DNA of 64,000 bases, taken from positions 128,822 through 192,821 of the forward strand of contig WBUH01000005.1 of assembly GCA_008933805.1 (NCBI GenBank), written 5' to 3'. Shown here one piece after another: positions 13,021-64,000 of the stretch. Position 1 is the first letter of the stretch. Each line of letters begins with the position of its first letter. Position numbers and translations under genes: made by a program. The notes below the pieces were generated by a model. That model was not told the DNA's origin and did no database searches. It saw nothing but the letters and a program-made list of their open reading frames with translations. The DNA comes from Bacteroidota bacterium (GTDB lineage: Bacteria > Bacteroidota > Bacteroidia > UBA8524).

Positions 13021-13177
13021 AATTGTAAGGGTTTGATTTTATTAATTAGTCGGGATGGTTTATAAACGGTTGTAAAATTTTTTAAACTATTTTTTATCAC
13101 CAACGGATATACACAAAAAAGCCACTGTTAGCAATTACTTGCACACAGTGGCTAATATCAAAAATGCTCTGTTGGCG

Positions 13178-40095: not shown

Positions 40096-40113
40096 AAAAC
40101 AATGCTTTATTAA

Positions 40114-43053: not shown

Positions 43054-44255
43054 AAACGTTGGCGGTAATTAGGTTGTGCTAATTGAATAGTAAGATTTAG
43101 GCTAAACAGCTTTTTGTTGGCATACTTTTTTACCTCGTAACTATCTTCAGTTATAGTTACTGCAACCGTTTTCTTTGGGTCTGACGGATCAATTTGCCAA
43201 TACACGGCCGGACTACCTGCCAGCTCTTGCAGCCAAACACTTTCTTCCTCCGTTATCCAGCCTGTATTTATTGAGTATTGCTCCGTTTCAACAGTATCAA
43301 AGTTTACTGTACCCCGTGCATACGAGTTATTTGTCCAAGCCATCGTATCCAAATCTGTATAGCCTGTAAACTTTTGGTAACCGCTGCGCTTAAACTGTGT
43401 AGTTTGCTTATGGCTGCCCGTAAACGTATAGCTGTCAAACCGTCCTAAACGGTTCAGAAAGTGCAACCTGAATAACTGATGGCGACCACAATCCCTATCT
43501 ACCACAAACGTGAAAGTCTCGCTAACTGGGCTGTTATCGCTTGCTAAAAAAACCACCGTGTAGCGTACCACCTCACTGGTAATGATACTGCCGCCCAAAT
43601 TGTATGGGCCGCACATAAAATCAAGCGAGTAGCTGATGCCTTGGTCGCTGCCTGAATACAACGTATGAGTAACTGTATAGGCATTAATCACTCCGCCCGC
43701 TGCATTGTATGTAGTTACCAACGCTTTAGACACCTGTTTACCAATAGAGATATGGCTCAGCGATGCGGCCTCATCCTCCCTTATTTTTAATGTGCGAGGC
43801 GAGTTTGTAAGCAGTCTCCTTTGTGTACCGCTTAACAAATCATAGTCGGTATAATCAAAGTCAATCCAATCAAGGTATTTCAACGCTGCATTAAATGCGT
43901 ACCCCGAAGCCGAAACCATACCGCTGGCAATAGGAAGGTTGTTTATTTCTTCGGTAAACTCAACCTTATAATCAGCCATTGTACCCCTTGCCACCTTAAA
44001 TCCTGTTGCACCTTTAGCAAGATTTTCAATTACAGGATTGTAGCGGGGTTCAAGCATACGGTGCACATCCGCTTGTATGTAGTTACCGTGCGGCCACTTA
44101 TCATATTTAAGTGTTTTTTTCAGCGTGCCTGCATGGTACACCTTAACTACCATTTTAAAATATTGGGTGGCCGCCAACGTGCTGCCCACAATAAACATCA
44201 TATCATTGTACACAGGGGTGAGTGCCTGCGGACGGTTGTGAAGTGTAATTGCCAT
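43050..44255 (-). CDS. Hypothetical protein of 401 aa, first gene of the tail-like operon (possibly a distal tail / baseplate-like protein)
   Basis: ORF is confident. The function is tentative. Confidence 0.3.
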   Translation of the reverse strand: MAITLHNRPQALTPVYNDMMFIVGSTLAATQYFKMVVKVYHAGTLKKTLKYDKWPHGNYIQADVHRMLEPRYNPVIENLAKGATGFKVARGTMADYKVEFTEEINNLPIASGMVSASGYAFNAALKYLDWIDFDYTDYDLLSGTQRRLLTNSPRTLKIREDEAASLSHISIGKQVSKALVTTYNAAGGVINAYTVTHTLYSGSDQGISYSLDFMCGPYNLGGSIITSEVVRYTVVFLASDNSPVSETFTFVVDRDCGRHQLFRLHFLNRLGRFDSYTFTGSHKQTTQFKRSGYQKFTGYTDLDTMAWTNNSYARGTVNFDTVETEQYSINTGWITEEESVWLQELAGSPAVYWQIDPSDPKKTVAVTITEDSYEVKKYANKKLFSLNLTIQLAQPNYRQRL

Positions 44256-44302
44256 AAAATTTTTTCTTTTTAGTTTGATTTGAAAAAATTTGTTCGCGGC
44301 GA

Positions 44303-44842
44303 GTGACTCAAAGACTATATATTATACTTATGAAATTCTGGCCTCAAAAAAAGTTTGTTATAGAAAGTGAATTATCTACTGGTGAGATAAAAGAGCGATT
44401 AAGAAAAGTAACTCATGAAGTAAAACCACAACGGATATTCCCCCGCAGGATCTTTAAAAAAACAACAGAGAATTTTGAAGGTGAAATTGAGTATGACCGA
44501 TTCGTAATAACGCCGGTGTATTATATCATCAATGGTTTTTTCGACCATAGCGACAGAGGTTACATTGTTCTCGAAGGCGAAATCAAGGCTTCAACCGATG
44601 GTAGCATAATAAACGTAACCACACAATTCAGTTACGGCATAAAACTATTTCTGCGAATAATGTACATATTAGTGGCTTTTATATTGGTTGCTTCACAATG
44701 GGCAGACCAAAAAAACGGTGCAAAAACATCCTTGCAAATGCTTGGTACAATATTGGGTATCATTCCATCGCTCGGTTTGTTTTTTATGCTGCTACGCCTT
44801 ACAAAAAAGAGTAAAGCTGCTTTTACCATGCTCTTTAAATAA
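44303..44842 (+). CDS. Hypothetical membrane protein
   Basis: Two C-terminal transmembrane helices. Divergent from the tail-like operon. Confidence 0.4.
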   Translation: MTQRLYIILMKFWPQKKFVIESELSTGEIKERLRKVTHEVKPQRIFPRRIFKKTTENFEGEIEYDRFVITPVYYIINGFFDHSDRGYIVLEGEIKASTDGSIINVTTQFSYGIKLFLRIMYILVAFILVASQWADQKNGAKTSLQMLGTILGIIPSLGLFFMLLRLTKKSKAAFTMLFK

Positions 44843-44948
44843 ATTCCTCATAGATAACAGCCTAGCCTCTCTTTTCACTTATCTAATTAATAGAAAAGAT
44901 TCCATCCCCTTTGCAGAAACAATCCCCGCTGTTTCCAATTAACAGCCG

Positions 44949-45599
44949 ATGAACATAGCAAAAAATTGGAACCAGATTTCTATAGGGCAGTTTCAGCAAA
45001 TAAATGCCGCCATTAAAAACTACCCTGATAATGCCATCACCCAAGCGGTTTGGATACTTAGCGCACTCACCGAAAATACCCGAGATGAGTTGCTTGCCCT
45101 TGATTTTACAAAAGATTTTAAACCCCTGATGCGTCAACTGGATTGGATACACAGTACCGCCCTACCCACCCAATTACCCAAACAGTTTGAATTGGAAGGC
45201 GAAAACTACCAATTGGTGTATGATATGAAACAGCGTACCACCGGACAGTTTGTCGATTTGGCTCATTTCACAGCCGACCCTGAGCAAATCATTCCCAACC
45301 TGCATTTCATACTTGCAGTGCTGTGCATACCTGTAGGTCAAAAGAACCATGCCGATGGCTTTGAACAACGGGCAAAGCTGTTTCAGCAAAAGCTAAGCAT
45401 AGCCATCGCATACCCAATTGCCACTTTTTTTTTGAAGCTTTGGGTCGACTCGTTGCCGCATATCCTAACTTATTTGGAACAACAAGCCGCCCCGAAGAAG
45501 AAGTGGTGGATGAAGATAATTGGTTCACTGCGCGCTACGGGTGGCTGGCTACGATTGATTCGGTTGCGGAAAACCGCACCCAATGGGACTTCTACCTGA
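44949..45599 (+). CDS. Hypothetical protein of 216 aa
   Basis: ORF only. Confidence 0.4.
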   Translation: MNIAKNWNQISIGQFQQINAAIKNYPDNAITQAVWILSALTENTRDELLALDFTKDFKPLMRQLDWIHSTALPTQLPKQFELEGENYQLVYDMKQRTTGQFVDLAHFTADPEQIIPNLHFILAVLCIPVGQKNHADGFEQRAKLFQQKLSIAIAYPIATFFLKLWVDSLPHILTYLEQQAAPKKKWWMKIIGSLRATGGWLRLIRLRKTAPNGTST

Positions 45600-45674
45600 T
45601 GATGCCCATTGTTGAGTTCTTAAACTACCTATGCTTTTTAAAAGACAAAAACGAATACCAAAGCACCCAAAAGC

Positions 45675-46226
45675 ATGAGCAATATTAATCAGCTACTTCG
45701 CCAAGCGTTTGAAGAGTTTGCAACCACTATTGAAACCGAGGCTCATAAAATATTGGCCGACGAGGGATTAGAAAAGGTGATACCCCAAACTGAAATCACC
45801 GATACTGCATTTGGAGTGAGTTATGAGTTTAGCCTTAGCGGACTTAACCCTTACATTGAATATGGCGTGAAAGGGGTTTTTTATACCCGCAAAGGGGCTG
45901 AAAACAGCCCCTTTCAATACAAACATTTAGGGCCATCGGAAAAAATGATTGACAATATCTTCTCATGGACATTGAAGAAAGGAATATTCGCCAAGCCTAA
46001 GAAGGCATCCCTTAAAAACAAACAGCCGAAAGAAGAAACAAGTAAAACAATTTACGACCGACAAATTGCATTAACGTTTGCCATAGCCCGAAATGTAAAA
46101 AAGCGGGGAATAGCACCCAAAGGGGTATTAACACAATTATTTACCGAAGAACGATTAAAAGAATTGTCTGAAAAAGTATCTGATATTGTCTGCAGAGAAA
46201 TTACCATCCAAGTAGCAAAACTGTAA
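45675..46226 (+). CDS. Hypothetical protein of 183 aa
   Basis: ORF only. Confidence 0.4.
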   Translation: MSNINQLLRQAFEEFATTIETEAHKILADEGLEKVIPQTEITDTAFGVSYEFSLSGLNPYIEYGVKGVFYTRKGAENSPFQYKHLGPSEKMIDNIFSWTLKKGIFAKPKKASLKNKQPKEETSKTIYDRQIALTFAIARNVKKRGIAPKGVLTQLFTEERLKELSEKVSDIVCREITIQVAKL

Positions 46227-46316
46227 CTTTTGCATTTTCTGCAAAACATAATACTTGCAGTGGCAAATTTTACCAATTAATGTCGTCCACCGCTCCATAG
46301 TTTTGAAATACAAACT

Positions 46317-47147
46317 ATGAAAACCATTTACTTATTGATTGGGGCGGCCGTCTTTGCCTCTTGCTCACCTACTTCGCACGTACCAACAATGCCAAGCGAA
46401 CCTAATTTTACAGGCGCATTGCAGGCACAAGCAACAGGCGGGGTAGCTACAGACCACATTGAATTACAAGGTGCTGTCTCTGTTCTACCCTTTTTAGGTG
46501 TTACTTACGATTATTATTGGGGTACAAAAGGTATAAACCAACAGGAATATGGAGCTAATTTATTTTTCCCGGTAAACAACCAAAAAACGTGGTTTATTTC
46601 TTTTTCGGCAGGAAAGGGGAATGGTATTTTTAATGGGGATTACAAAACAAGCAGTGCATTAGTAGGTGCAGAAAAAAGTTATGCAATTGATACAAAATTC
46701 AATTCTGAATATCTCCAAGCATCCACTTATTATGTCGATAAAAGCAATACTGATGTAATAGTAAAATACTCAATAGCTTTTAAACAGGAAAACATTAGTT
46801 ATGATAGATTTAAGGTTGCTTATCGTAGTAGGTCCGGTCAAAGCTATTACACCTACAACATTCTCAGCGAAGCCGAAAACGCCCGAACAACAATAAAAAC
46901 TGCCTTCATCGGAGTAACAGTAGAGCCAAAAAAGAGGCCGCTTATCATGCAATTTCAATTAGGTGTAAGGGACGTTACACGAGGATTTAAAACCACAATC
47001 ACAGCGATGAGTGGAGGCACAAGTATTAAATCTGGTATTGATATTCTTAACGCACAACTACACCCGCTTTTCGAACCCTTTATGTTCAATATGACCGTTG
47101 GTTTTAAGCTTGATTATTTCAAACACCGTACTAAAAAGAGAATATGA
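46317..47147 (+). CDS. Lipoprotein, member 3 of the paralogous family
   Basis: Lipobox FASCSP. Shares the ATDHIELQGAVS block with the next gene, whose version is SPTHIEFQGSCAI. Confidence 0.5.
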   Translation: MKTIYLLIGAAVFASCSPTSHVPTMPSEPNFTGALQAQATGGVATDHIELQGAVSVLPFLGVTYDYYWGTKGINQQEYGANLFFPVNNQKTWFISFSAGKGNGIFNGDYKTSSALVGAEKSYAIDTKFNSEYLQASTYYVDKSNTDVIVKYSIAFKQENISYDRFKVAYRSRSGQSYYTYNILSEAENARTTIKTAFIGVTVEPKKRPLIMQFQLGVRDVTRGFKTTITAMSGGTSIKSGIDILNAQLHPLFEPFMFNMTVGFKLDYFKHRTKKRI

Positions 47148-47923
47148 AACCTATTTACCTGATTTTAATTAGCCTACTTATTACCTCGTGCGGAATTAAG
47201 AGAAATACTTTCATCGCCCTTTTGCCCAATAACCCGATGTTTACTGAAAAGGGCGACGTTACTTTCAATTCAGCAGCATCGCCCACGCATATAGAGTTTC
47301 AAGGCAGTTGTGCAATCACCAACCATTTAGATATCACCGTAGGGCGGTTTTATGGCGGCAGTCCCCGAAAAAGCGATGAAATAGGAATTAATGCTTACTC
47401 CAGAGTTTATAAATCCCTGTACTTTTCAACGGGATTCGGCTGGGGGAAAACCGCAATTAATAATAAACATGAAAGTGCTTTTATAAGCAATGAAAACATT
47501 AACGTTAGAGTAAATTACAACACACTCTTTGTACAACCTTCACTATACTTAGTACTACAGGATGAGGACATGGATGCCGCAACACGGGTTGGCATCTCGT
47601 TCAAATACGGAATAAACACCCTAAATGATTATTATTACTACACTTTTGAAAACGAATGGCACTCAAGCCGATTGAGTGAAGAAACTATTATTACTGCCGA
47701 TAGGCAACGGTTTTTCAGTGTCAGCCCATTGCTGTCGGTAGAAAGGAGTATCGGCAATTTCACCGTTGGCATACACACAGGTCTTGCGCTAACTTCATCA
47801 TTCAAGGCAAGGTATCAATACCATACGCCAAACTCGTCGTGGAACAATCGCGACTATTTTATACAAGAAGACTTATACTACATGCCTTTTGTTTTTAGTG
47901 GTTTTATCGGCATCCGCTTATAA
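47144..47923 (+). CDS. Lipoprotein, member 4 of the paralogous family (tandem duplicate; overlaps the previous gene by 4 nt)
   Basis: Lipobox ITSCGI. Same architecture as member 3. Confidence 0.5.
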   Translation: MKPIYLILISLLITSCGIKRNTFIALLPNNPMFTEKGDVTFNSAASPTHIEFQGSCAITNHLDITVGRFYGGSPRKSDEIGINAYSRVYKSLYFSTGFGWGKTAINNKHESAFISNENINVRVNYNTLFVQPSLYLVLQDEDMDAATRVGISFKYGINTLNDYYYYTFENEWHSSRLSEETIITADRQRFFSVSPLLSVERSIGNFTVGIHTGLALTSSFKARYQYHTPNSSWNNRDYFIQEDLYYMPFVFSGFIGIRL

Positions 47924-52604: not shown

Positions 52605-55600
52605 TTACCACACCTGCCAGTCAAATCCTGCCGTTTCGGTGCGGCTGGTAGGTCGTTGTAAACCATCTGTCAGTCTCTCCACCTCAGTTCCTACAAATGT
52701 TTTTAACTCTTGTACGGTACAGGTTTGCTTTTCAGCTAATAACTGTAATACACAATAAGTAAATACCCCGTTTTGCAGCTCGCCCTTTTCATACGCTACT
52801 TGTGTTCCCGCCGCCGCTGATATAATTGTCGTCCCGGTACCTCTACCCACATCAGCAAACATTTCCTGCATCAGTTCAAAACTATTTTTCAGCCCCACAA
52901 CTTGCTCATCATCCACCAGCAATTCTATACCATTTTTGCCCCCGTTATTAATGTGCTTAGCAGTATCGGAGAAAACCACCCGCATGCTCTCCATCTCATC
53001 TTTATCCACCTCACCGCTGTGGCAGGCATCAATCAACAACAGCTTCCTGCGCATAGGCAAACTGTCAAGTAACTGTTCCATCATCGTATACGGCAACCCG
53101 CCCTCATTAGGGTTTCTAAAATTTACCATGTAAGTAGACAAATAATACTCCAGTTGTTTATCCAACAACCCATGCCCTGAGTATGAAACTATTAAACGGT
53201 CATTTACATTCGCTTGTAATAATCTGTTTCGCAATGCCATTACCTTTTCAAGCGATACATTGCTATTAAACAGAGTATCTATCACCAATTGGTCGCCAAG
53301 TTTTGCTTTTAGCCCCTCTGCAAAATTTACAATGTCTTTAACACTGTATTTGAGATTATGTCCCGGTTCTTTAAATTCATCAATTCCTATACCTATAAAA
53401 TAGATTTTAGAAGGGTTCGCTTCGTACTCAGCAACGATAGTAATTGTTTCGGTGGCGGATTTTACGCCGTTTACATCCGTTGCATATACTTGTACCACAT
53501 TATTGCCTTTTTGCAACTTCACTTTGCAATTCACCTTCGCTTCTCTTCCACCTGAAACGGGCATCCCCTCTTTGCCAAACACAGGTACTCCGTTAGCCAT
53601 AACTTGCAGTTTACTAACATCCGCATACAACGAACTGAGGGCTATTTCTAACACTACTTCATCAGAAGTTAGCACCAACGGAAGTTGGCTTTTGTTTACA
53701 ATTTTTACCTCAGGTTCTTTACCAATAATGTTCTCTATTGTTTTTGCTTTAATTCTCCGCAAACGTTTCGCAACAGCCCCCTTCAATAACTCGTTGAACG
53801 CTTCGTTAGACGACCCCGAAAGCAAAACAACCGTATCCGGACGGTTAAAATAAATATCATATTCAACGGGTAAATACCCTTTGCCTTTATAAGCAAACGC
53901 AAGGTTATTAACCGCTGATTTATCCCCTCGATAAAGATAATTATTTGCTACCTCAATAAACTTGCGACCCGCATAAGAGGTAAAATACAACTGTGTATTA
54001 TCATTTAATACCGTGTACATTTCTTCTTCAGTAGAAAACGTGAAACCATTACTTAAATGATTTACGTGAAAAAACGATTCACGCGGGGTTTGCTGCCACA
54101 ACAACTCACGATTGCTTAACTTAGCTACATACAGCTCGCTATATGCTTCAAATGCAACTCTATCCGCTCGCATATCTACTTCAAACGAAAAGAACCGACT
54201 ATCAGTAAATTCATACTTCTCTTTGGGTGTCGCTACTGATAAGTCAATACTATAAACCTCATTAATCAATTCACGACCATTTTTGGCTGTCCAATAATTG
54301 GTGCTATACCACAACACATCAAGGGTCTTATCAAACGTAAAATATCTTACCTCTACATCCTTTTTAAGCTCTATGGTAAATACTTTTTTAGCGCTCACCC
54401 AATCCCATATTTCTATACTGTGCCGCTTTTCTCCGGCATTTATTATTGCTAAGTATTTTTTTGAAGGGGAAACCGCAAACAATTCACCTGAAAACAGCCG
54501 TTTTAATTTATTTATCTCCAAAATCACCCCATTATTATTCACTACCATTACAGCATTATCACCTGCCAAGGCATAATTCCCCTCTGTCAATTTATTTACA
54601 TTAATAATAGATTTGGGAAGCTTTTCTTCACTAATATTTTCTGTCGAAAATATTGGCCCTAAAATATTCAACTCAGCATTAAAATCAATAGTATAACTAC
54701 TTAGTTGCATTTTATTAAACAGCAGCTTACACCACTTAGTCTGATTGTATTTAATAATGGCAAGGGAATTTTCTTTACTATCCAACACAAACTTGCACCA
54801 TTTGCAAGCTATAGTAGTAGGTTGGGTTTTATTGCTTGAAAATACCACAAGAGTATCTGAACTATAATCCGCTTTATAGGCTATGATGTGGTAATTTCCC
54901 TGTTCATCAAATACCTTAAAAAATTGCGAGTATTTATCCTGTAATTGAATTTTTCGGAATGCAGGTTGGAATTTTTTGCGGTTAATATCGTATAAATCTT
55001 GATTGCGAGATGAAGCAAACAAATCCTGAATATCATCCGTTGCTGAAAGTAATTGTGTGCTGTCAGTACTCCAACAATAAAACTTAGCCATGTTGAAGGA
55101 AATAGGATAATGTAATGTATCCGCAGTAGATAAACTTACTTTTAGTAAACGACTAAAGCCATAATTCACTACTACACTATTTTCATTTGGGTACTTTAAC
55201 ACCCTAAATATTGAAGACGAAGAGGCTAACATACTGTATTTATCAACAGGATCTTGCCCATCTAATAATAATTCGTGTTCGCGCTTCCCGTCTTTATAAA
55301 TACATATTCGTCCGTCGCCATAATCACCCCCCACATATTTAGCTGCTTGCGAAGGGATTGCAACTATACTTTTACCAACAGCTAACAGTTGATGAATGGC
55401 TGTGTCAAAGGCTCTGAACAAAGTGTTTTGTTGCAAACTCTCATTAATTCCGACGACATCTCCCGATAACGTCCCTGCCAATATTACACCATTTTGGGCC
55501 TGTGCTGCGAATGTTGTTATAAGATGTGCTGTTGGGGCAGTTTGTGTAACGGTTTCTGTCTTGGCATCAACTAAATATAACTTACAGTTAACAGGTCCTA

Positions 55601-56111
55601 AGTATTCGTTTTTCCCCTTATTATCAATTAAATAACTTATTGTGCTGTCCTTCTTCATAGGGTAGGTTTTAGTATGAATAAGCACTTTGGTTTCATCATC
55701 AGGCCACAGGGTAAAACTCTCTATTATCTCAGGAAATTTAATTTGGTTAAAAAAAGTATCCACCTTGCCGGTAATAAGATCGGCTTTTACTAATACCGAC
55801 CCAGTAGAGATCAATACTGTTCCATCAGCCATTAATGCTGTTTTGCCCACTCCTTGTGCCCCCCAACTACCTGCCTCAAATACCAACGTGCCTACCTGTA
55901 TTTTAGAGGTTTGGTCAATCAACGTGTAATTATTCCCGCTAATTACTAAAAACCAACTACCCTTTGCACTCGATTGCACATCCTCCAACCCTAAATCAAA
56001 CGTTACTTGGCTCACCAATTTGGGCATGGTTTGCCCATAACCCACCGTTACAAGAAAAACAATAGTAAAAAGAAGTATGAAGCGATGTATTGCCTGTTTC
56101 ATTACAGGCAA
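52605..56111 (-). CDS. Secreted 1168-aa protein with a beta-propeller (WD40/PQQ-like) region and a C-terminal caspase-like (peptidase C14) domain
   Basis: Signal peptide. The caspase domain, at about 52605-53420, holds a His in YSGHG and the catalytic Cys in LLLIDACHSG, so both dyad residues are present. Confidence 0.7.
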   Translation of the reverse strand: MPVMKQAIHRFILLFTIVFLVTVGYGQTMPKLVSQVTFDLGLEDVQSSAKGSWFLVISGNNYTLIDQTSKIQVGTLVFEAGSWGAQGVGKTALMADGTVLISTGSVLVKADLITGKVDTFFNQIKFPEIIESFTLWPDDETKVLIHTKTYPMKKDSTISYLIDNKGKNEYLGPVNCKLYLVDAKTETVTQTAPTAHLITTFAAQAQNGVILAGTLSGDVVGINESLQQNTLFRAFDTAIHQLLAVGKSIVAIPSQAAKYVGGDYGDGRICIYKDGKREHELLLDGQDPVDKYSMLASSSSIFRVLKYPNENSVVVNYGFSRLLKVSLSTADTLHYPISFNMAKFYCWSTDSTQLLSATDDIQDLFASSRNQDLYDINRKKFQPAFRKIQLQDKYSQFFKVFDEQGNYHIIAYKADYSSDTLVVFSSNKTQPTTIACKWCKFVLDSKENSLAIIKYNQTKWCKLLFNKMQLSSYTIDFNAELNILGPIFSTENISEEKLPKSIINVNKLTEGNYALAGDNAVMVVNNNGVILEINKLKRLFSGELFAVSPSKKYLAIINAGEKRHSIEIWDWVSAKKVFTIELKKDVEVRYFTFDKTLDVLWYSTNYWTAKNGRELINEVYSIDLSVATPKEKYEFTDSRFFSFEVDMRADRVAFEAYSELYVAKLSNRELLWQQTPRESFFHVNHLSNGFTFSTEEEMYTVLNDNTQLYFTSYAGRKFIEVANNYLYRGDKSAVNNLAFAYKGKGYLPVEYDIYFNRPDTVVLLSGSSNEAFNELLKGAVAKRLRRIKAKTIENIIGKEPEVKIVNKSQLPLVLTSDEVVLEIALSSLYADVSKLQVMANGVPVFGKEGMPVSGGREAKVNCKVKLQKGNNVVQVYATDVNGVKSATETITIVAEYEANPSKIYFIGIGIDEFKEPGHNLKYSVKDIVNFAEGLKAKLGDQLVIDTLFNSNVSLEKVMALRNRLLQANVNDRLIVSYSGHGLLDKQLEYYLSTYMVNFRNPNEGGLPYTMMEQLLDSLPMRRKLLLIDACHSGEVDKDEMESMRVVFSDTAKHINNGGKNGIELLVDDEQVVGLKNSFELMQEMFADVGRGTGTTIISAAAGTQVAYEKGELQNGVFTYCVLQLLAEKQTCTVQELKTFVGTEVERLTDGLQRPTSRTETAGFDWQVW

Positions 56112-57596: not shown

Positions 57597-59903
57597 TTAC
57601 CAGCCGCCACCGCCGCCACCGCCTCTGCCACCGCCACTATACCCCGAACCTTTTGACGCACTGCCTGAATTAGTAGATTTTGAGACTGAACTTTTTGAGC
57701 TATTGCTTTCCGAGGCTCGTAGAGCTTCCGCTTCTATTTCTTTCTTTTTATAATCCACTAACTGCTTCAACTCTTCTGTCCTTCTGCTCAACATTTCAGC
57801 GGCAGCCCTGTCGCTACTATGCCTGAAAATTGTCAAATCAGGTCTATGTTTCTCTTCGCTTTCAGTAGTATTACTGTTGAGTTCCTCTGTTATTTCAGTC
57901 AACCTTCTTTGATAAAAGTTACTGTAATCAACCCCCCAACTTCTTCTCATACTGTTTGATAACAGATAATAACCACCGGTAGAGTAAACAACGCTGTTTA
58001 CCATTGTATTCTCTGCAAACCCGTCTGCTTCCAATGATTTCTTAATCGAATTTCCAAACGCAGAGGTCCATTCCTTTAAGCAATCTAAGGCAATTGCATA
58101 GGGCAACATTTTCTCAGGCACAAAATCCGCGTTAGGCTTGTTAATAGTGTTCATCCGCTGCGAGTCGGCAGTCGCTAAAAACATTCTCAGCCCCAAAATT
58201 TTGTTCAACAATGTTTCACCCGCTTGCGTGTACTTGGTATATCTTAAATCCAAAAGTTTGTGAACCAAGGCACACAACACAATTCCGGTTAAATAATACA
58301 CAAAGGTTAACGCCGAAGGCTTATAGTGAATAGTCATTAATAAAACTGAAATTGCCAATGAAACGCCGATTAGAACACGTCCCCATATTTGCCCGCCTCT
58401 TTTATAGACAAACAATGCAGCATTCTTATTTTTTGAGTCACAATACCTTTTCACCTGTGCATCAAAATAGGCAACTTCTTCACTTGCCTTGTCCGGCTTA
58501 ATATGGCCCGTCACAATTATTTCGGCATCCTCTATTAGCAGTTGTTCTGCCTCCTTACCGAAAGGTACTTTTTTATCAGTAGCTGCAATTAAATAATTGC
58601 CGCTACCGCTGCTATCTGCCGAAATAGTCAGGTATTTATTTACAGCTAAGTTTACCAAACTTGCAATGGTTTGGGATGGCTCATACCCTTTGTGGTAAAT
58701 ATAGCCTGCAAGTGCCGGGTTTACATCGTCGGGGGCTGTAAACTCAGGCACTATATTGGCCTTATTTTTATTCGAAGCCTTTAGTTTTCTCCAACCAAGT
58801 ATTACAAGGTTTCTAATCAGTAACAGGATAGCAACCCATATCATAAAAAAGGGGCCGCTGTTAGAAAACAAAATAATTGACCATTCAGGTTCACGGGAAA
58901 TAATGCCTTCAGGGATTGAGCAAGCAATGGTTAACCCTTCATTCTTTAGCATTCCTCCGTTTGCAGCAAAAACAAGACTTGAGGTTTTCGCGTCAAATTT
59001 ACCGTAGCAGTCTTTGGCAGAATCTCCATATTTTCCGGTGTAGCAAGAGAAAGAGTTTACTGTTGACCCCTCAGGAAACTTAACTGCGCAACTAATACTG
59101 TCAATATCAAACTCCCAACCATTCCCATTTACGTTCCAATACAGTTCATCATACCCTTCACCATACTTAAATGGCCTTTTTACAGTATAAATTATTTTAT
59201 AAACATGACTGCCAAATGATAAAATGGAGTCAGGATTACCAATATATAGCAGTTTACTTCCTGCTTCAAAATCATCGTCATATTTTACAGGCTGGTTGTT
59301 CAAGAGGATGCTGTCAACCCTAACAATCATTTTAAAATTAAGTCCTGAGCCTATATCATAACTATCAGGTATATACCTGACAATTCCTTTATTTATAGAC
59401 CCTGTTTCTGTGTTTAAAACCGCTATGGTCTCCACAACACGCATGGTTCCATCCTGGCGGATTTCAAAATCGGCGTGAAATGATTGAATTTTATCTGCCG
59501 CCAAACCGGCCTCAAAAACACTTTTAAGGTCATCCATCGCCTTAATTGTTGCCTTTGCTATATGTTTAGTGAGTTTACCGAACTCTTTAGCCTTCCCTTT
59601 TTTTGTAGCTATGGACTCTTTGCCGGGTACTACGTCTGCTCTATACAAAACCTCATCCCAAACTTTTTTATTAAATCCTTCTTTAACAGAATTAAAATAT
59701 TTTTCGAATTTTTTATTATCGAATTTGGAATCAGAAATTTTATTTGAATACACTAAAATACTGGCATCTATCGCACTATCTATTTGATGATCTACACAAT
59801 AGTGAAGCTGTTTTCCGTTACCATCTAAATATTTTTGTGTTTGGCTATACGATACATTAAAAATACCAATAACCAGCAGCAGGAAAAGTAATACCCTCAT
59901 CAA
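57597..59903 (-). CDS. DUF2207-family membrane protein
   Basis: Signal peptide, a large extracytoplasmic domain, transmembrane helices, and a characteristic poly-Gly C-terminus (GGGRGGGGGGGW). Confidence 0.65.
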   Translation of the reverse strand: MMRVLLFLLLVIGIFNVSYSQTQKYLDGNGKQLHYCVDHQIDSAIDASILVYSNKISDSKFDNKKFEKYFNSVKEGFNKKVWDEVLYRADVVPGKESIATKKGKAKEFGKLTKHIAKATIKAMDDLKSVFEAGLAADKIQSFHADFEIRQDGTMRVVETIAVLNTETGSINKGIVRYIPDSYDIGSGLNFKMIVRVDSILLNNQPVKYDDDFEAGSKLLYIGNPDSILSFGSHVYKIIYTVKRPFKYGEGYDELYWNVNGNGWEFDIDSISCAVKFPEGSTVNSFSCYTGKYGDSAKDCYGKFDAKTSSLVFAANGGMLKNEGLTIACSIPEGIISREPEWSIILFSNSGPFFMIWVAILLLIRNLVILGWRKLKASNKNKANIVPEFTAPDDVNPALAGYIYHKGYEPSQTIASLVNLAVNKYLTISADSSGSGNYLIAATDKKVPFGKEAEQLLIEDAEIIVTGHIKPDKASEEVAYFDAQVKRYCDSKNKNAALFVYKRGGQIWGRVLIGVSLAISVLLMTIHYKPSALTFVYYLTGIVLCALVHKLLDLRYTKYTQAGETLLNKILGLRMFLATADSQRMNTINKPNADFVPEKMLPYAIALDCLKEWTSAFGNSIKKSLEADGFAENTMVNSVVYSTGGYYLLSNSMRRSWGVDYSNFYQRRLTEITEELNSNTTESEEKHRPDLTIFRHSSDRAAAEMLSRRTEELKQLVDYKKKEIEAEALRASESNSSKSSVSKSTNSGSASKGSGYSGGGRGGGGGGGW

Positions 59904-59907
59904 TTAA

Positions 59908-60462
59908 TTATTTATCGGTAAAGTTAACTTTAGGGACTTTCTTGGCTTCAGGGTCTTCTGTAAAAAACACTTCGGGCTTAAACCCGAACATCCCGGCGAT
60001 AAGCACCTTAGGAAATACCGCTATCGATTGATTGTACTCCCTAACAGTACCGTTAAAATACTTGCGAGCTTCTCTTATATGCTCTTCTGTTTCGGTTAGT
60101 GTGTCGTACAAATCTTTAAAATTTGAATCTGCTTTTAGCTCAGGATAGTTCTGCGATATAGCAAATACATTTCGCAAAGCCGAGCTAAGACCAATCGCTA
60201 CCTCGCCTTGCTCTTTTGCTCCAACTGCAGCAATACCCTTACTGTGCCACATAGAAATTTCTTTCAAAATCTCTTTCTCGTGCGAGGCGTACCCTTTTAC
60301 AGTTTCAACAAGATTCGGTATCAAATCAAGTCGTTGTTGTAAATATGCTCCCAAAGTGCTTTGGCCTTCATGCACCAAAATACGTTCCTTTACTAACTCG
60401 TTGTAAATACGTACTACAAAAAATAAAATAGCTAATAAAACAATTCCTAATACAACTACCAT
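59908..60462 (-). CDS. LemA-family protein
   Basis: N-terminal transmembrane segment and the LemA signature (YNELVKERI ... QRLDLIPNLV). A LemA gene is commonly paired with a DUF2207 gene. Confidence 0.85.
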   Translation of the reverse strand: MVVVLGIVLLAILFFVVRIYNELVKERILVHEGQSTLGAYLQQRLDLIPNLVETVKGYASHEKEILKEISMWHSKGIAAVGAKEQGEVAIGLSSALRNVFAISQNYPELKADSNFKDLYDTLTETEEHIREARKYFNGTVREYNQSIAVFPKVLIAGMFGFKPEVFFTEDPEAKKVPKVNFTDK

Positions 60463-60634: not shown

Positions 60635-61030
60635 ATGATACTGATAAATAAAGGCACCAACAACTTGGTTATCTTCACTCTGAAGGAAAAAACCACCCGC
60701 CCCAATCCTAAATACCTCTTCGAGTTTAGTAACTCTCAAACTAACGAAAGTATTACTTGTATCGCAGCCGATACCTCTGACTACCCCGAGCGTTATAATA
60801 GTTTTGAGATAGTAGAAATTACCAGCCCCAGCCCGCTGCTAGCACAGGTAGAGCTTACCCCCTCAGGTTTTTGGGAATACAAGGTATATGCTCAAGACAG
60901 TGCTACAAACTTACAACCCGCCAATGCCGACGAACTGGTTGAAACAGGGTTAGCCTACGTGGTGGGCACCGCTGAAACCACCTATACTTATAATGACCAA
61001 CCCACTAACGCATTTATATACAATGGATAA
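60635..61030 (+). CDS. Hypothetical beta-rich protein of 131 aa (phage-like locus 3)
   Basis: ORF only. Overlaps the next gene by 8 nt. Confidence 0.35.
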   Translation: MILINKGTNNLVIFTLKEKTTRPNPKYLFEFSNSQTNESITCIAADTSDYPERYNSFEIVEITSPSPLLAQVELTPSGFWEYKVYAQDSATNLQPANADELVETGLAYVVGTAETTYTYNDQPTNAFIYNG

Positions 61031-62276
61031 GCAAAAACACTTTTTTACAACCTTGCAAGTGCCTACGTGGCATAAACCGCCCCGATTTAAGGAAAGCCGC
61101 CGTTTCGATTGGGTTAATTATGGTGAAGCGAACGATTACCCCGACTATCTGATAAATCTTTTTAACGGTTCGCCTACCCATCAAGCCATTGTGAGCGGCA
61201 AAAAAGATTATATTTTTGGTAAAGGGGTAGAAATACCCAATAGCCCAAACACCGCTGATGCTGCTAAACTGCAACAGTTAATTCACAGAGCCAACCGCTT
61301 CGAATCGTTGAACCAATTGCTTGAAAAATTGATTCTAGATTATGAGCTTTTTAATGGTTTCGCTGTAAAAATCTACCAAAACATTGTTACAGGTAAGATT
61401 AGCGAGATGTACCACGTAGATTGGGCTACTTGCCGTATCAACGAAGACGCATCGGTAATTTACACTTCAAAACAGTGGACTGAGCAACAGTCGCTAACGA
61501 ACAAGTTTGCTGGAAGTACCCGTCAACCGGAAGACTTAAGAGGCCTCCCCGCTTTCGATATCAACGTTCCTCAGCGTGAAAGCATTTTGTATTTCCGTGA
61601 GTATAGCCCACAAATGAAGGTGTATCCATTACCGGGTTATTTAGGTTGCAATGCTTCCATTGAAACCGAAATAGAAATCAGTAACTTTCATCTAAACAAC
61701 ATAAAAACAGGGTTTTCTGCAGGCACCCTGCTTACATTTACTAACGGTGTGCCCACCGAAGATGAGCAACGGGATATTGAACGTCAGGTAAAGCGCAAAG
61801 TGGCGGGAACGGATAATGCGGGTGAAATTATATTATACTTTACAGACGGTGTAGAAAGTACCCCTCAAATATTACAACTGCGCCCCAACGATCTTGATAA
61901 ACAGTACGACCAACTTAAACAAACAGTAATGGACACCATTTTTGTGGGTCATAAAGTTACCAGCCCAATGTTGTTTGGTGTTAGGGCACCCGGCCAACTG
62001 GGAGGAAGAAATGAACTAAGGGAAGCTTACGAATTGTTTCAAAACACCTACGTCAACAAACGCAGGCAAACTATTGAGCAATTGTTGAAAAACCTTGCTG
62101 AAACCAATGGCATCAGTACGCCATTATGCCTTACTCCAACCGAACCGATCGGTTTAGGAATGTTGTTGAGCGAGCAGGACATTAGTGAAGTACTTACTTC
62201 TGATGAAAAACGTCGCTACTTGGCACAAATAGGTTTCCCTATCACTGTCAGCGATCCATCAATTGCAGATAATTAA
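61023..62276 (+). CDS. Putative phage portal-like protein of 418 aa
   Basis: Size and context only. No P-loop is present, which argues against a terminase. Tentative. Confidence 0.3.
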   Translation: MDKQKHFFTTLQVPTWHKPPRFKESRRFDWVNYGEANDYPDYLINLFNGSPTHQAIVSGKKDYIFGKGVEIPNSPNTADAAKLQQLIHRANRFESLNQLLEKLILDYELFNGFAVKIYQNIVTGKISEMYHVDWATCRINEDASVIYTSKQWTEQQSLTNKFAGSTRQPEDLRGLPAFDINVPQRESILYFREYSPQMKVYPLPGYLGCNASIETEIEISNFHLNNIKTGFSAGTLLTFTNGVPTEDEQRDIERQVKRKVAGTDNAGEIILYFTDGVESTPQILQLRPNDLDKQYDQLKQTVMDTIFVGHKVTSPMLFGVRAPGQLGGRNELREAYELFQNTYVNKRRQTIEQLLKNLAETNGISTPLCLTPTEPIGLGMLLSEQDISEVLTSDEKRRYLAQIGFPITVSDPSIADN

Positions 62277-62317
62277 TCCATTACAAATTTTCTTACACTA
62301 TCAATTAGCAAATCCTT

Positions 62318-62893
62318 ATGGAACAGGTCTATTTTATATCCGCCGACAGGCTGAAAGAAGATACCGTGATTAATGAGAACACGGATAATAAGTTAATCTC
62401 ACCCACAATACTCATGGTGCAGGATATTTATATACAGGGTATTATCGGCACCTCATTATACAACGAGTTGAGAACTCAGGTAAAGGCCGACACTGTAACA
62501 GCCCTTAACCAAACATTGCTTAATGACTATTTACAACCGGCTATAAAACACTATTGTATGGCCGAACTGTGTCTGCCGCTTACGTATAAGTTCATGAATA
62601 AATCCATCGTAACAAAAAATAGCGAGAACAGTGTTACTGCCTCACCGGAACAACTAAGTCAGATAAAAAACTATTACCTGAACCATGCGGAATGGTACGC
62701 GAAACGTATTGTAAAATACCTGCAGCAAAATCAATCTAAATACCCTTTATGGCTGAGCGGAAATACTACTATTGATGCCATTCACCCAAGAATCAACACT
62801 TATCACACAGGTATGTTTTTGGGAAATACTCGTGGGAATTCATTCTCAACCTCATTACCTATTGATAACGGCGAAAACAATTGTTGCGAATAG
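62318..62893 (+). CDS. Hypothetical protein of 191 aa (phage-like locus 3)
   Basis: ORF only. Confidence 0.35.
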   Translation: MEQVYFISADRLKEDTVINENTDNKLISPTILMVQDIYIQGIIGTSLYNELRTQVKADTVTALNQTLLNDYLQPAIKHYCMAELCLPLTYKFMNKSIVTKNSENSVTASPEQLSQIKNYYLNHAEWYAKRIVKYLQQNQSKYPLWLSGNTTIDAIHPRINTYHTGMFLGNTRGNSFSTSLPIDNGENNCCE

Positions 62894-62962
62894 TTATGAA
62901 TGAAAAGAGAATAAAAAAAGAAAACATCCAAAAATTACTCAATTATCTAGAAAAGAAAGACC

Positions 62963-64000
62963 ATGCAGTTTCAGACAAAAAATCAGGTAATAACAAAACT
63001 AAGGCAACTGGCTGAAAGTCATTTACTAGTCCGTGGGTTTGGCTATGGTGACCGTTGGGAACTTGAATCAGCTATGACCAAAGTGGATGGTACAACAATC
63101 GGACTCACCCATCCTTCAAAGCAGCCGTTTATGTGGGTTACCCCCATAATAGCCCGTGTAACCGAAGGTAGTCTCTTTTATGATTTTGAAATAATTGTAG
63201 GCGACTTGGTGAAACGGGATGAAAGTAATGAACTGGAAGTGGAGAGTGATACTTTACTTATTTGTTTGGACATCCTCTCAAAACTAAACGATGAAAGCTA
63301 TGAATGGGCTCTTTCAAAGCAAAGTAATCTTCAACCCTTTACCGAAAAGTGGGACAGCGAATTTACGGGCCACATTATGAATGTATCGCTGGAGTTTATG
63401 TTTGATTATGACTATTGTCAAGTTCCATTTACACGTCCGGATGAAGACATCACTGCATTTCTTGCGGCTACAGGCATTGACGATGAAACACAAATATTTG
63501 CCATTACTTATTTAGTAACGCAACTAAAAGAAAACGGACTTTGGAACAAAATGCACGCTCTATACCCGTTTGTAGGCGGTACGGCAAATAGGCACAGTAT
63601 AAACCTAAAAAATCCGGCTCAGTATAAAATAACGTGGAGTCCAACGGGAGTGACCCACAACGCAAATGGTATAACCGGAGACGGAATAGCCGGCTATGGC
63701 GACACCGGTTATATTATCGCCGCTGCAAACAAAGACAACTTCCATATGTCAGCTTATATAAGGAATGATGTTAGTGCTGGGGCTAAATGTGCTATCGGAG
63801 GCACTAGTGACAGTAATGTAATTCAACTCTTACCGTTTCAAACGGGAAATCTCTTCCAATCTTCAATAAACCAAAATACTGCATCAACAGCTTCAAATGT
63901 TTCTTCGAAAGGAAATTATATAGGTAGTAGACTTGCCCCAAATCGTTCAATTGCGTATAAAAATGTCACAAAATTATTTGAAAACACCACTGTGAGTACT
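62963..64000 (+). CDS. Hypothetical protein, at least 346 aa, 3' end outside the window; phage structural-protein-like
   Basis: I translated this by hand from the ATG at 62963. There is no stop codon before the window end. The conserved-looking N-terminal domain is followed by a Gly/Ser/Thr/Asn-rich region typical of fibre or adaptor proteins. Confidence 0.4.
   Translation, partial: MQFQTKNQVITKLRQLAESHLLVRGFGYGDRWELESAMTKVDGTTIGLTHPSKQPFMWVTPIIARVTEGSLFYDFEIIVGDLVKRDESNELEVESDTLLICLDILSKLNDESYEWALSKQSNLQPFTEKWDSEFTGHIMNVSLEFMFDYDYCQVPFTRPDEDITAFLAATGIDDETQIFAITYLVTQLKENGLWNKMHALYPFVGGTANRHSINLKNPAQYKITWSPTGVTHNANGITGDGIAGYGDTGYIIAAANKDNFHMSAYIRNDVSAGAKCAIGGTSDSNVIQLLPFQTGNLFQSSINQNTASTASNVSSKGNYIGSRLAPNRSIAYKNVTKLFENTTVST

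What the first reader, a model, noticed from the sequence alone, without database searches (positions are those of the whole stretch)
52605..56111. Secreted 1168-aa beta-propeller protein fused to a caspase-like domain with an intact catalytic dyad
The C-terminal 270 aa or so carry the caspase/C14 hallmarks: His in IVSYSGHG and Cys in LLLIDACHSG. The preceding 850 aa or so look like repeated beta-propeller blades behind a signal peptide. Prokaryotic caspase homologues fused to sensor repeats are linked to programmed cell death and anti-phage or stress responses. This one sits between the two phage-like loci and next to tnaA.
Basis: partly seen in the sequence, partly recalled or inferred. Interest (0 to 1): 0.55.

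Follow-up and report, generated by a model that had tools for sequence, protein, structure and literature searches.

The report
Exported double-propeller caspase-like protease
This is a real, intact gene for a caspase-family cysteine protease that a Bacteroidota bacterium probably exports out of the cytoplasm behind two beta-propeller domains; it belongs to a common but unstudied family and shows no link to cell death or phage defence.

Summary
The ORF is real but lies on the minus strand (52605-56111). Its likely start is the ATG at 56102, giving 1165 aa.

**Caspase domain.** Pfam Peptidase_C14 matches residues 905-1154 (E 5e-15). His977 and Cys1027 align with the metacaspase catalytic dyad and are invariant in 82 relatives. 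The predicted fold matches MALT1, a Geobacter caspase homologue and metacaspases. Two invariant Asp residues (923, 1025) predict cleavage after Arg/Lys.

**N-terminal region.** Residues about 35-726 get no Pfam hit. They are predicted as all-beta, with about 14 blades. They are homologous (hhalign 98.4%) to the WD40 arrays of a large Bacteroidota family with the layout signal peptide, WD40, Ig, caspase.

**Export.** A Sec signal peptide followed by the Bacteroidota "Q-rule" glutamine is conserved. The enzyme is therefore most likely periplasmic, not a cytoplasmic death executor.

**Context.** No partner gene is conserved. tnaA adjacency holds only in the two closest relatives. The gene is under purifying selection (dN/dS 0.12).

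**Verdict.** This is a diverged member of a known kind, the propeller-fused prokaryotic caspase homologues. Its substrate is unknown and its interest is modest.

The parts
52605..56102 (-). CDS of the exported propeller-Ig-caspase protein (1165 aa plus stop). The ORF extends to a TTG at 56111, but the ATG at 56102 matches the homologues' start.
56034..56102 (-). Sec signal peptide, residues 1-23 (MKQAIHRFILLFTIVFLVTVGYG). The predicted signal peptidase I site lies before the invariant Gln24 (Bacteroidota Q-rule).
   Evidence: hydrophobic core, small residues at -3/-1, Q at +1 in the family; Q-rule papers PMC5837995 and PMC10653852
54948..56000 (-). First beta-propeller, residues about 35-385 (about 7 blades; boundary approximate). 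This segment has about 3-fold higher dS and dN than the rest of the gene in the comparison with the 94% relative.
53925..54947 (-). Second beta-propeller, residues about 386-726 (about 7 blades). It keeps one recognisable WD motif (EIWDW, residues 563-567) and a CxxC motif (C433, C436).
53712..53924 (-). Junction and helical linker, residues 727-797. It carries the family-wide motif NNLAF...YFNRPD (N753, R754, P755 and D756 invariant or nearly so in 82 sequences).
53424..53711 (-). Ig-like beta-sandwich, residues 798-893.
   Evidence: weak Pfam Big_15 match at 828-890, below cut-off; beta-sandwich strands with pLDDT above 90
52608..53423 (-). Peptidase C14 (caspase-haemoglobinase fold) domain, residues 894-1165. 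Catalytic His977 (53172-53174) and Cys1027 (53022-53024). S1-pocket Asp923 (53334-53336) and Asp1025 (53028-53030). Low-confidence loop at 1029-1080 in the position of the p20/p10 linker.

Best explanation
The gene encodes a Sec-exported, most likely periplasmic, metacaspase/orthocaspase-type cysteine endopeptidase.

**Proposed mechanism**
1. After export, signal peptidase I cuts before Gln24.
2. The mature protein is two WD40-derived beta-propellers (about 14 blades), a helical linker, an Ig-like spacer and a C-terminal C14 domain.
3. The His977/Cys1027 dyad and an acidic S1 pocket (Asp923, Asp1025) should cleave after Arg or Lys.
4. The propellers carry many lineage-invariant motifs. They act as the docking platform for one specific extracytoplasmic protein or peptide ligand and present it to the protease.
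5. The 50-residue flexible loop after the catalytic Cys, which holds conserved basic residues, may be the site of activating autoprocessing, as in the orthocaspase MaOC1.

**Proposed role.** The role is limited proteolysis (processing or turnover) of an envelope or periplasmic target. This would be a chromosomal, vertically inherited function, not cytoplasmic suicide.

**Shown versus inferred**
- Shown: the domain anatomy, dyad conservation, fold, signal-peptide features, homology of the propellers to WD40 arrays, lack of conserved partners, and purifying selection.
- Inferred: export and cleavage, Arg/Lys specificity, the substrate-docking role of the propellers, autoprocessing, and the physiological role.
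For: **Caspase domain**
- Pfam C14 matches with E 5e-15, above the gathering score.
- SGHG and D-x-CHSG align to the catalytic His/Cys of Candida metacaspase and Arabidopsis MC4.
- H977, C1027, D923 and D1025 are invariant in 18 subfamily members and 82 wider-family sequences.
- The C-terminal model (pLDDT 80.7, pTM 0.80) matches MALT1 paracaspase, Geobacter GSU0716, metacaspases and caspases at probability 1.00.
- The two Asp residues correspond to TbMCA2 Asp95 and Asp211, which accommodate basic P1 residues (PMC4357240, PMC6426788).

**Export**
- Every one of the 48 sequences printed shows an N-terminal hydrophobic core followed by a small residue and Gln. My strict -3/-1/+1 pattern scores 16 of 18 and 20 of 30.
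- This fits the Bacteroidota Q-rule for signal peptidase I substrates.
- The window is Bacteroidota, since it encodes proteins with T9SS C-terminal domains.

**Propellers**
- The model is all-beta from 41 to 726.
- Foldseek matches tandem WD40 proteins, the periplasmic BT4663 sensor and tricorn.
- hhalign of the N-terminal region alone against the WD40-caspase family gives 98.4%, E 6e-15, colinear over 616 columns.

**Functional gene in a stable position**
- dN/dS is 0.12 against the 94% relative.
- The gene sits next to iscS and the epimerase in four relatives spanning 51-94% identity.
- GC content is like its surroundings.
Against: - No signal-peptide predictor or experiment was available, so the N-terminal helix could be an uncleaved membrane anchor.
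- No substrate or partner is identified, and no conserved neighbour gives a clue.
- The Cys of the TbMCA2 S1 pocket (Cys92) is Ser here, so specificity or activity could differ.
- Model coordinates could not be inspected. Blade number and dyad geometry therefore rest on the secondary-structure string and on fold matches.
- The protein evolves much faster than its neighbours (64% identity against 95-97% in L003). In distant relatives it sits among other exported clan-CD proteases. Both features would also fit a conflict or defence role.
Confidence: 0.6

Rival explanations
1. Periplasmic nutritional peptidase. The propellers act as a gate or filter, as in tricorn or the DPP-IV/prolyl-oligopeptidase family. 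The caspase-fold domain degrades imported proteins or peptides after Arg/Lys, by analogy with the Arg/Lys-specific clan-CD gingipains of Bacteroidota.
For: - Export signal.
- Predicted Arg/Lys specificity.
- Foldseek hit to tricorn.
- The wider family is expanded and often tandemly duplicated in Chitinophagaceae and other polymer degraders: 34 of 79 loci have a paralogue next door.
- Authors have speculated on extracellular protein degradation by bacterial metacaspases (PMC4933709).
Against: - There is no T9SS C-terminal domain or lipobox, so the protein is not surface-exposed like gingipains.
- There is no peptide-transporter, SusC/D or TonB neighbour.
- The many invariant propeller motifs suggest one specific ligand rather than a passive filter.
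- The gene is single-copy in this window.
Confidence: 0.2
2. Envelope-located conflict or defence sensor-protease. The propellers detect a foreign component in the periplasm (a phage protein or a competitor's toxin), and the activated caspase domain destroys it or an essential envelope protein.
For: - The protein evolves far faster than its neighbours.
- Propeller 1 shows a recombination-like mosaic: dS 0.47 against 0.11-0.20 for the other domains of 70 or more residues.
- In L009 and L010, distant members lie in clusters of exported C14, TPR-CHAT and CHASE2 proteins.
- Paralogue arrays are common in the wider family.
- PADLOC gives a generic caspase hit.
Against: - The gene is not in a defence island. 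Its neighbours are tnaA, isc genes, an epimerase and a peroxiredoxin.
- It has a stable orthologous position.
- dN/dS of 0.12-0.13 shows no sign of positive selection, and the high dS points to recombination rather than diversifying selection.
- There is no NTPase or partner effector.
- Propeller motifs are strongly conserved across the clade.
Confidence: 0.12
3. Cytoplasmic programmed-cell-death or abortive-infection executor. Sensor repeats would activate a caspase that kills the cell, functionally tied to the flanking phage-like loci or to tnaA.
For: - WD40-fused caspase homologues elsewhere are discussed in PCD contexts (PMC3501461, PMC5756287).
- Phage-like genes do flank the region.
- tnaA is 35 nt upstream on the same strand with no terminator between.
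Against: - The export signal is conserved throughout the family.
- There is no STAND NTPase, gasdermin or CRISPR partner.
- The EACC1-caspase model is below its cut-off.
- tnaA and the phage-like genes are absent beside the 57% and 51% orthologues and beside more distant members.
Confidence: 0.05
4. Non-catalytic scaffold (pseudo-protease). The propellers would do the work and the caspase domain would be only structural.
For: - Pseudo-orthocaspases are common in bacteria (PMC6426788).
- The S1-pocket Cys is replaced by Ser.
Against: - His, Cys, the flanking Gly residues and both S1 Asp residues are invariant over 82 sequences.
- Known pseudo-variants replace the dyad with Tyr and Ser (abstract of PMC6426788), and that replacement is not seen here.
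Confidence: 0.04

Closest known systems
Prokaryotic caspase homologues (orthocaspases / bacterial metacaspases, MEROPS C14B) fused to WD40 repeats
   Same: - C14 domain with a His-Cys dyad and acidic S1-pocket Asp residues.
- Fusion to beta-propeller repeats. WD40 is the commonest partner domain of bacterial metacaspases (10.9% of sequences in PMC3501461).
   Different: - The architectures named in the papers read here put the caspase first and are NACHT-linked (Metacaspase-NACHT-WD40, PMC3501461) or carry C-terminal WD40 (cyanobacterial TeMC9, PMC5756287). Here the order is signal peptide, propellers, Ig, caspase.
- There is no NTPase.
- The protein is predicted to be extracytoplasmic.
- The propellers are so diverged that no WD40 Pfam model matches.
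Bacteroidota 'caspase family protein' lineage: signal peptide, canonical WD40 array, Ig, caspase (e.g. P0018, and loci L011-L079 in Chitinophagaceae, Flavobacteriales and Sphingobacteriales)
   Same: - The C-terminal 450-aa module (YFNRPD junction, Ig, caspase) is shared at 36-44% identity.
- The signal peptide plus AQ site is shared.
- Overall length and colinearity are the same.
   Different: - Their propellers are textbook WD40 (E 1.6e-141 to PDB 2ymu, and a match to the Apaf-1 WD40 region).
- This subfamily's propellers share only about 12% identity with them and have their own invariant motifs.
- The subfamily is tiny: 41 representatives in 1.84 billion proteins.
- The gene is single-copy here, whereas the wider family is often tandemly duplicated.
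MALT1 paracaspase and Geobacter GSU0716 (PDB 3BIJ)
   Same: - They are the best structural matches of the predicted caspase domain (E 1e-9 to 5e-9, probability 1.00).
- From my own knowledge, MALT1 also combines Ig domains with an Arg-specific caspase fold.
   Different: - Sequence identity is only 14-18%.
- From my own knowledge, MALT1 is cytoplasmic, death-domain linked and activated by dimerisation. None of this was tested here.
Gingipains (C25, clan CD) of Porphyromonas
   Same: - Bacteroidota exported clan-CD cysteine proteases specific for Arg or Lys (RgpB P1 arginine binding in PMC4357240).
- From my own knowledge, they carry an adjoining Ig-like domain.
   Different: - They belong to a different family (C25, not C14).
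- From my own knowledge, gingipains have a pro-domain.
- They have a T9SS C-terminal domain and act at the cell surface (abstract of PMC5053529). This protein ends in the caspase domain with no such domain.

Membership tests
Peptidase family C14 (caspase / metacaspase / orthocaspase) | Profile match to PF00656 above the curated threshold | tested here: met
   E 5e-15, 56.3 bits against a cut-off of 21.4, residues 905-1154 covering profile positions 7-224 of 233
Peptidase family C14 (caspase / metacaspase / orthocaspase) | Catalytic His and Cys at the canonical positions (SGHG ... D-x-C-H-S-G) | tested here: met
   H977 and C1027 align to the HYSGHG and DSCHSG motifs of Candida metacaspase 7qp0 and Arabidopsis MC4 6w8s. 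They are invariant in 18 and 82 sequences.
Peptidase family C14 (caspase / metacaspase / orthocaspase) | Caspase-haemoglobinase fold | tested here: met
   The predicted model (pLDDT 80.7, pTM 0.80) matches MALT1, GSU0716, metacaspases and caspases-7/-11 at probability 1.00. This is a prediction, not a solved structure.
Peptidase family C14 (caspase / metacaspase / orthocaspase) | Cys-dependent endopeptidase activity | not testable with these tools
   Needs a recombinant enzyme assay with a C1027A control.
C14B subfamily (metacaspase/orthocaspase-type, basic P1) | Two acidic S1-pocket residues equivalent to TbMCA2 Asp95 and Asp211 | tested here: met
   D923 aligns with the Asp of the AtMC4 GCVND motif, and D1025 lies two residues before the catalytic Cys. 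Both are invariant. Their role is taken from PMC4357240 and PMC6426788. The pocket Cys92 equivalent is Ser here.
WD40 repeat beta-propeller | Sequence match to WD40 profiles | tested here: not met
   There is no Pfam or NCBIfam hit in residues 1-827. The subfamily profile finds only a weak BamB blade in the PDB (E 0.008). The N-terminal profile finds no significant canonical WD40 protein in 1.84 billion sequences.
WD40 repeat beta-propeller | Propeller fold and homology to bona fide WD40 arrays | tested here: met
   - All-beta model with about 59 strands between residues 41 and 726.
- Foldseek E 1e-18 to 1e-14 to tandem WD40 proteins.
- hhalign of the N-terminal region alone against the WD40-caspase family: 98.4%, E 6e-15. 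That family is itself canonical WD40.
- Blade count was not checked on coordinates.
EACC1-associated caspase (NCBIfam NF047832; NTPase conflict systems) | Score above the curated cut-off | tested here: not met
   55.7 bits against a cut-off of 140, and only residues 916-1041 matched.
Known anti-phage systems with caspase-like effectors (gasdermin-activating, type III CRISPR TPR-CHAT, STAND/Avs) | Adjacent partner gene (gasdermin, Cas/Csx, STAND NTPase) and a cytoplasmic effector | tested here: not met
   - The neighbours are tnaA, DUF2207, LemA, SnoaL, a peroxiredoxin, a cNMP-binding protein, an epimerase and IscS.
- PADLOC finds only a generic caspase model for the protein. It finds nothing for five of the six neighbours scanned, and three marginal hits (E 0.0015-0.0063) for LemA.
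- The protein carries an export signal.
Sec / signal peptidase I substrates of Bacteroidota (Q-rule) | N-terminal n-h-c signal peptide with small residues at -3/-1 and Gln at +1 | tested here: met
   In MKQAIHRF-ILLFTIVFLVTV-GYG|Q, Q24 is invariant in the subfamily and the equivalent Gln is invariant in the wider-family alignment A2. The feature scan is and the rule in PMC5837995 and PMC10653852. Actual cleavage and pyroglutamate formation were not tested.
T9SS cargo (e.g. gingipains) | C-terminal Por_Secre_tail / CTD domain | tested here: not met
   The protein ends in the caspase domain (...GFDWQVW), with no PF18962 hit. Other ORFs of the same window do have one.

The most novel reading that the evidence does not exclude
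The exported propeller-Ig-caspase proteins of Bacteroidota, including this diverged lineage, would form an extracytoplasmic surveillance system. On this reading the propellers recognise a foreign or damaged component in the periplasm and switch on a caspase-type protease there. That would be a periplasmic counterpart of the cytoplasmic sensor-caspase immunity and death modules. The recombining first propeller would be the specificity determinant.
Probability: 0.1. Interest if true: 0.7.

Novelty: new member of a known kind. Interest (0 to 1): 0.33.

Why it matters
Bacterial caspase homologues are usually discussed as cytoplasmic death or defence proteases. According to a 2017 review (PMC5756287), only one orthocaspase, MaOC1, had been characterised biochemically.

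This gene, together with the several hundred Bacteroidota relatives found here, points to a sizeable set of such enzymes that are exported. They are built as propeller-guided Arg/Lys proteases in the cell envelope. Showing what one of them cuts would say whether prokaryotic 'caspases' have an ordinary envelope-proteolysis role.

The finding does not by itself open a long-standing question. The architecture class has been catalogued since 2012, and nothing here ties the gene to a new mechanism.

Tried and rejected
- **Plus-strand reading.** It is full of stops. The gene is on the minus strand.
- **Sequence repeats in the N-terminus.** A self-BLAST found none. Pfam, NCBIfam and a PDB sequence search gave nothing beyond a weak BamB blade. 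The propeller nature came only from structure prediction and profile-profile comparison.
- **Conserved partner genes.** I clustered all ORFs within 6 kb of 79 family loci. The only frequent neighbour is another paralogue (34 loci), then TPR-CHAT proteins (9 loci). Nothing is shared with this window.
- **Second copy in the window.** None was found.
- **Defence-system membership.** PADLOC gave only a generic caspase model, and EACC1 was below its cut-off.
- **Horizontal-transfer signature.** GC content is unremarkable.
- **Positive selection.** dN/dS is 0.05-0.14 in every domain of 70 or more residues. The excess divergence of propeller 1 is matched by excess dS, so I read it as recombination.
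- **Literature.** The four text searches aimed at this listed no paper on an exported, WD40-fused bacterial caspase homologue.
Full report
**1. The observation**

The window holds one long ORF at 52605..56111 on the minus strand (1168 aa from a TTG). The plus-strand frame is riddled with stops. The translation starts LPVMKQAIHRF.... The two closest homologues (94% and 79% identical) begin MKQA..., and the more distant ones also begin at that aligned methionine. The start is therefore most likely the ATG at 56100-56102, which gives 1165 aa.

**2. The caspase domain**

- Pfam Peptidase_C14 matches residues 905-1154 with E 5e-15 and 56.3 bits, well above the 21.4-bit gathering score.
- In sequence searches of the PDB, SYSGHG and IDACHSG align with the HYSGHG and DSCHSG catalytic motifs of Candida metacaspase-1 and Arabidopsis metacaspase-4.
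- His977, Cys1027 and the glycines around them are invariant in the 18 full-length relatives. They are also invariant in an 82-sequence alignment of the wider family.
- An AlphaFold2 model of residues 715-1165 built on that alignment has mean pLDDT 80.7 and pTM 0.80.
- Its best PDB matches, all at probability 1.00, are MALT1 paracaspase, the Geobacter caspase homologue GSU0716 (3BIJ), Candida and Arabidopsis metacaspases, and caspases-7 and -11.

*Predicted specificity.* Asp923 aligns to the Asp of the metacaspase GCVND motif. Asp1025 lies two residues before the catalytic Cys. Both are invariant. They correspond to TbMCA2 Asp95 and Asp211, the acidic residues that accommodate a basic P1 side chain (PMC4357240, PMC6426788). 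I therefore infer Arg/Lys specificity, as in metacaspases and orthocaspases. The pocket Cys92 equivalent is Ser here.

*Loop after the catalytic Cys.* Residues 1029-1080 are modelled with low confidence. They occupy the position of the p20/p10 linker and contain conserved basic residues and an invariant GLKNSFELM stretch. Autoprocessing there, as reported for the orthocaspase MaOC1 (PMC5756287), is possible but untested.

**3. The N-terminal 830 residues**

Pfam and NCBIfam see nothing in this region except a sub-threshold Ig-like match at 828-890. A self-comparison finds no sequence repeats.

The full-length AlphaFold2 model (18-sequence alignment, mean pLDDT 75) is nevertheless confidently all-beta from residue 41 to 726. 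It has about 59 strands, which is about 14 four-stranded blades.

Foldseek matches it to tandem seven-plus-seven WD40 proteins (UTP/PWP2-type processome proteins, Gemin5, IFT subunits). It also matches the periplasmic double-propeller sensor domain of Bacteroides BT4663 and tricorn protease, at E 1e-18 to 1e-14. I could not inspect coordinates, so 'two seven-bladed propellers' is the simplest reading rather than a counted fact.

Homology, as distinct from mere fold similarity, comes from relatives:
- A genome scan found more than 546 Bacteroidota loci that share the C-terminal 450-aa module.
- In most of the 79 loci kept, the gene encodes a protein of about 1000-1300 aa (a few reach 1700) that starts with a signal peptide followed by ...AQQPKLxLPxGHT....
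- Their N-terminal region is textbook WD40: the profile matches PDB 2ymu at E 1.6e-141 and also matches the Apaf-1 WD40 region.
- A profile of the present subfamily's N-terminal region alone aligns colinearly to that WD40 region, with hhalign probability 98.4% and E 6e-15 over 616 columns at 12% identity.

The subfamily keeps one recognisable WD motif (EIWDW, residues 563-567). It has acquired its own invariant motifs, including NYTLIDQxSKIQ, QGNYH, SSNKTxP and FSFExD...AxEAY.

The subfamily is rare. An exhaustive profile search of 1.84 billion representative proteins found 41 hits. The long ones are nearly all 1125-1200 aa, one is 1393 aa, and the rest are fragments. Every full-length homologue in the first search carries the Pfam caspase domain.

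**4. Export**

The N-terminus is MKQAIHRF-ILLFTIVFLVTV-GYG|Q. It has a basic n-region, a hydrophobic core, small residues at -3 and -1, and then Gln.
- Gln24 is invariant in the subfamily, and the equivalent Gln is invariant in the wider-family alignment A2.
- A strict scan for small residues at -3/-1 followed by Gln scored 16 of 18 subfamily sequences and 20 of 30 wider-family sequences. By eye, the remaining sequences also carry a small residue followed by Gln after the hydrophobic core.
- This fits the 'Q-rule' described for Bacteroidota signal peptidase I substrates (PMC5837995, PMC10653852).
- The window is Bacteroidota, because two other ORFs carry T9SS C-terminal sorting domains.
- The caspase protein itself has no lipobox. 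It also has no T9SS domain, since it ends in the caspase domain.

The most likely destination is therefore the periplasm. This step is inferred from sequence, not shown.

**5. Context**

On the minus strand the gene order is LemA, DUF2207, tryptophanase (tnaA), then the caspase gene. On the plus strand, reading away from the caspase gene, lie SnoaL, a peroxiredoxin, a cNMP-binding protein and methylmalonyl-CoA epimerase. The isc genes (iscS, iscU, iscA) follow beyond these on the minus strand.

tnaA ends 35 nt before the ATG with no terminator-like site in the gap, so co-transcription is possible here.

Synteny tells against a functional link:

| Relative | Caspase identity | tnaA adjacent | iscS / epimerase adjacent |
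|---|---|---|---|
| L001 | 94% | yes | yes |
| L003 | 64% | yes | yes |
| L002 | 57% | no | yes |
| L004 | 51% | no | yes |
| L005-L010 | 32-39% | no | no |

L005-L010 share no neighbours with the window at all. Across 79 family loci the only common neighbour is another paralogue (34 loci). Next come exported TPR-CHAT proteins (9 loci) and other C14 proteins. None of these is in this window.

PADLOC gives only a generic caspase hit for the protein. It gives nothing for five of the six neighbours scanned and three marginal hits (E 0.0015-0.0063) for LemA. The EACC1-type caspase model is far below its cut-off.

Phage-like genes do flank the region: a tape-measure-like ORF at 37666-40095 and a portal-like ORF at 60993-62276. 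They are separated by about 13 kb that also holds housekeeping genes. They travel with the gene only in the two nearest relatives.

**6. Evolution**

The protein diverges much faster than its neighbours. In L003, IscS is 97.5% identical and TnaA 94.6%, against 64% for the caspase protein. The Ig domain and propeller 2 are the most variable parts and the caspase domain the least.

Against the 94% relative L001, the Nei-Gojobori estimates are:

| Region or gene | dN/dS | dS |
|---|---|---|
| Caspase gene, whole | 0.12 | 0.24 |
| Propeller 1 (residues 24-385) | 0.13 | 0.47 |
| Propeller 2 | 0.12 | 0.15 |
| Linker | 0.06 | 0.11 |
| Ig | 0.14 | 0.13 |
| Caspase domain | 0.05 | 0.20 |
| tnaA | 0.02 | 0.22 |
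| iscS | 0.04 | 0.27 |

The gene is functional but less constrained than its neighbours. In 50-residue windows the step in divergence falls sharply at about residue 373. Because synonymous sites are affected equally, I read this as a recombination tract that replaced the first propeller, not as positive selection. GC content is ordinary.

**7. What it most likely is and does**

It is a Sec-exported, probably periplasmic, metacaspase-type Arg/Lys endopeptidase. Its two WD40-derived propellers dock a specific extracytoplasmic ligand or substrate, with an Ig-like spacer between the propellers and the protease.

I favour limited proteolysis of an envelope or periplasmic target for four reasons:
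- The propeller carries many clade-invariant motifs.
- The gene is single-copy.
- It sits at a stable chromosomal position among housekeeping genes.
- It is under purifying selection.

Rival roles cannot be excluded. These are periplasmic nutritional peptidase (tricorn- or gingipain-like logic) and envelope conflict sensor (fast evolution, recombining propeller, caspase clusters in distant relatives). The cytoplasmic cell-death reading is the least compatible with the conserved export signal.

**8. Comparison with what is known**

WD40 is the commonest partner domain of bacterial metacaspases (10.9% of sequences in PMC3501461). N-terminal helices that may be signal peptides were already noted there. 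NCBI names the wider-family proteins 'caspase family protein'.

The features I found no description of in the papers read are the order signal peptide, propellers, Ig, caspase; the predicted export; and the extreme divergence of the propellers. Of these, the domain order and the export signal are shared by hundreds of database entries.

I therefore file this as a new, diverged member of a known kind, with modest interest. The most novel reading still open is a periplasmic surveillance protease, and I give it about one chance in ten.

Noticed in passing
window 37666-47923 and 60635-64000: Two phage-like gene groups flank the region.
- 37666-40095(-) hits a tape-measure PHROG (E 5e-11). The neighbouring 979-aa and 401-aa ORFs have no Pfam or PHROG hit, and five + strand ORFs at 44303-47923 have no Pfam hit (those five were not scanned against PHROGs).
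- 60993-62276(+) hits portal PHROGs (E 1e-34) and is followed by a DUF6712 ORF.

The groups are separated by about 13 kb that also holds housekeeping genes. The portal-like ORF, its two flanking ORFs and ORFs 46317-47923 are 76-98% identical at the protein level in L001. The portal-side ORFs are 86-91% identical in L003, which also has ORFs of the same sizes (401 and 979 aa) in the matching position. This may be a split, conserved phage-derived cluster (GTA-like or domesticated).
   Followed up: partly
window 54948-56033 (residues 24-385 of the caspase protein): Against the 94% relative L001, the first propeller has dS 0.47 and dN 0.06. The other domains of 70 or more residues have dS 0.11-0.20 and dN 0.006-0.02. 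The step falls sharply at about residue 373. dN/dS is unchanged (about 0.13), so this looks like a recombination tract rather than positive selection.
   Followed up: partly
window 57597-60462 (-): The LemA and DUF2207 membrane-protein pair lies upstream of tnaA. It is absent at this position in the 94% relative L001 but present in L003, so it is a strain-level indel. DUF2207 is only 61% identical in L003, although the flanking genes are above 90%.
   Followed up: no
L009:3822-17324 and L010:10001-19780: In distant members of the subfamily the gene lies in clusters of exported clan-CD proteases. These include a 750-aa C14 protein, a CHASE2 protein, a second WD40-caspase paralogue, a 1062-aa TPR-CHAT protein and a 1000-aa C14-TPR protein. 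No such 'caspase island' exists in this window.
   Followed up: partly
window 53835-53846 (residues 753-756) and 54795-54806 (residues 433-436): Two conserved motifs have no explanation.
- YFNRPD lies at the propeller-to-linker junction. N753 and P755 are invariant, and R754 and D756 nearly so, across 82 wider-family sequences.
- A CxxC pair (CKWCKF) lies in propeller 2 and is conserved in most subfamily members.
   Followed up: no
L001 and L004 record titles: The closest relative's contig is labelled 'Agrobacterium sp.' and another is labelled 'Burkholderiales'. Both contigs nevertheless carry an orthologue of this gene in the same chromosomal setting next to iscS and the epimerase, and the window itself is Bacteroidota by its T9SS sorting domains. 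These are probably MAG binning or labelling errors.
   Followed up: no
window 11311-17079 (-): Two T9SS cargo proteins lie here: a PKD-repeat protein, and a DUF7619/DUF11 protein with Por_Secre_tail. An outer-membrane beta-barrel protein sits next to them. They are useful as a taxonomic marker for the window.
   Followed up: no
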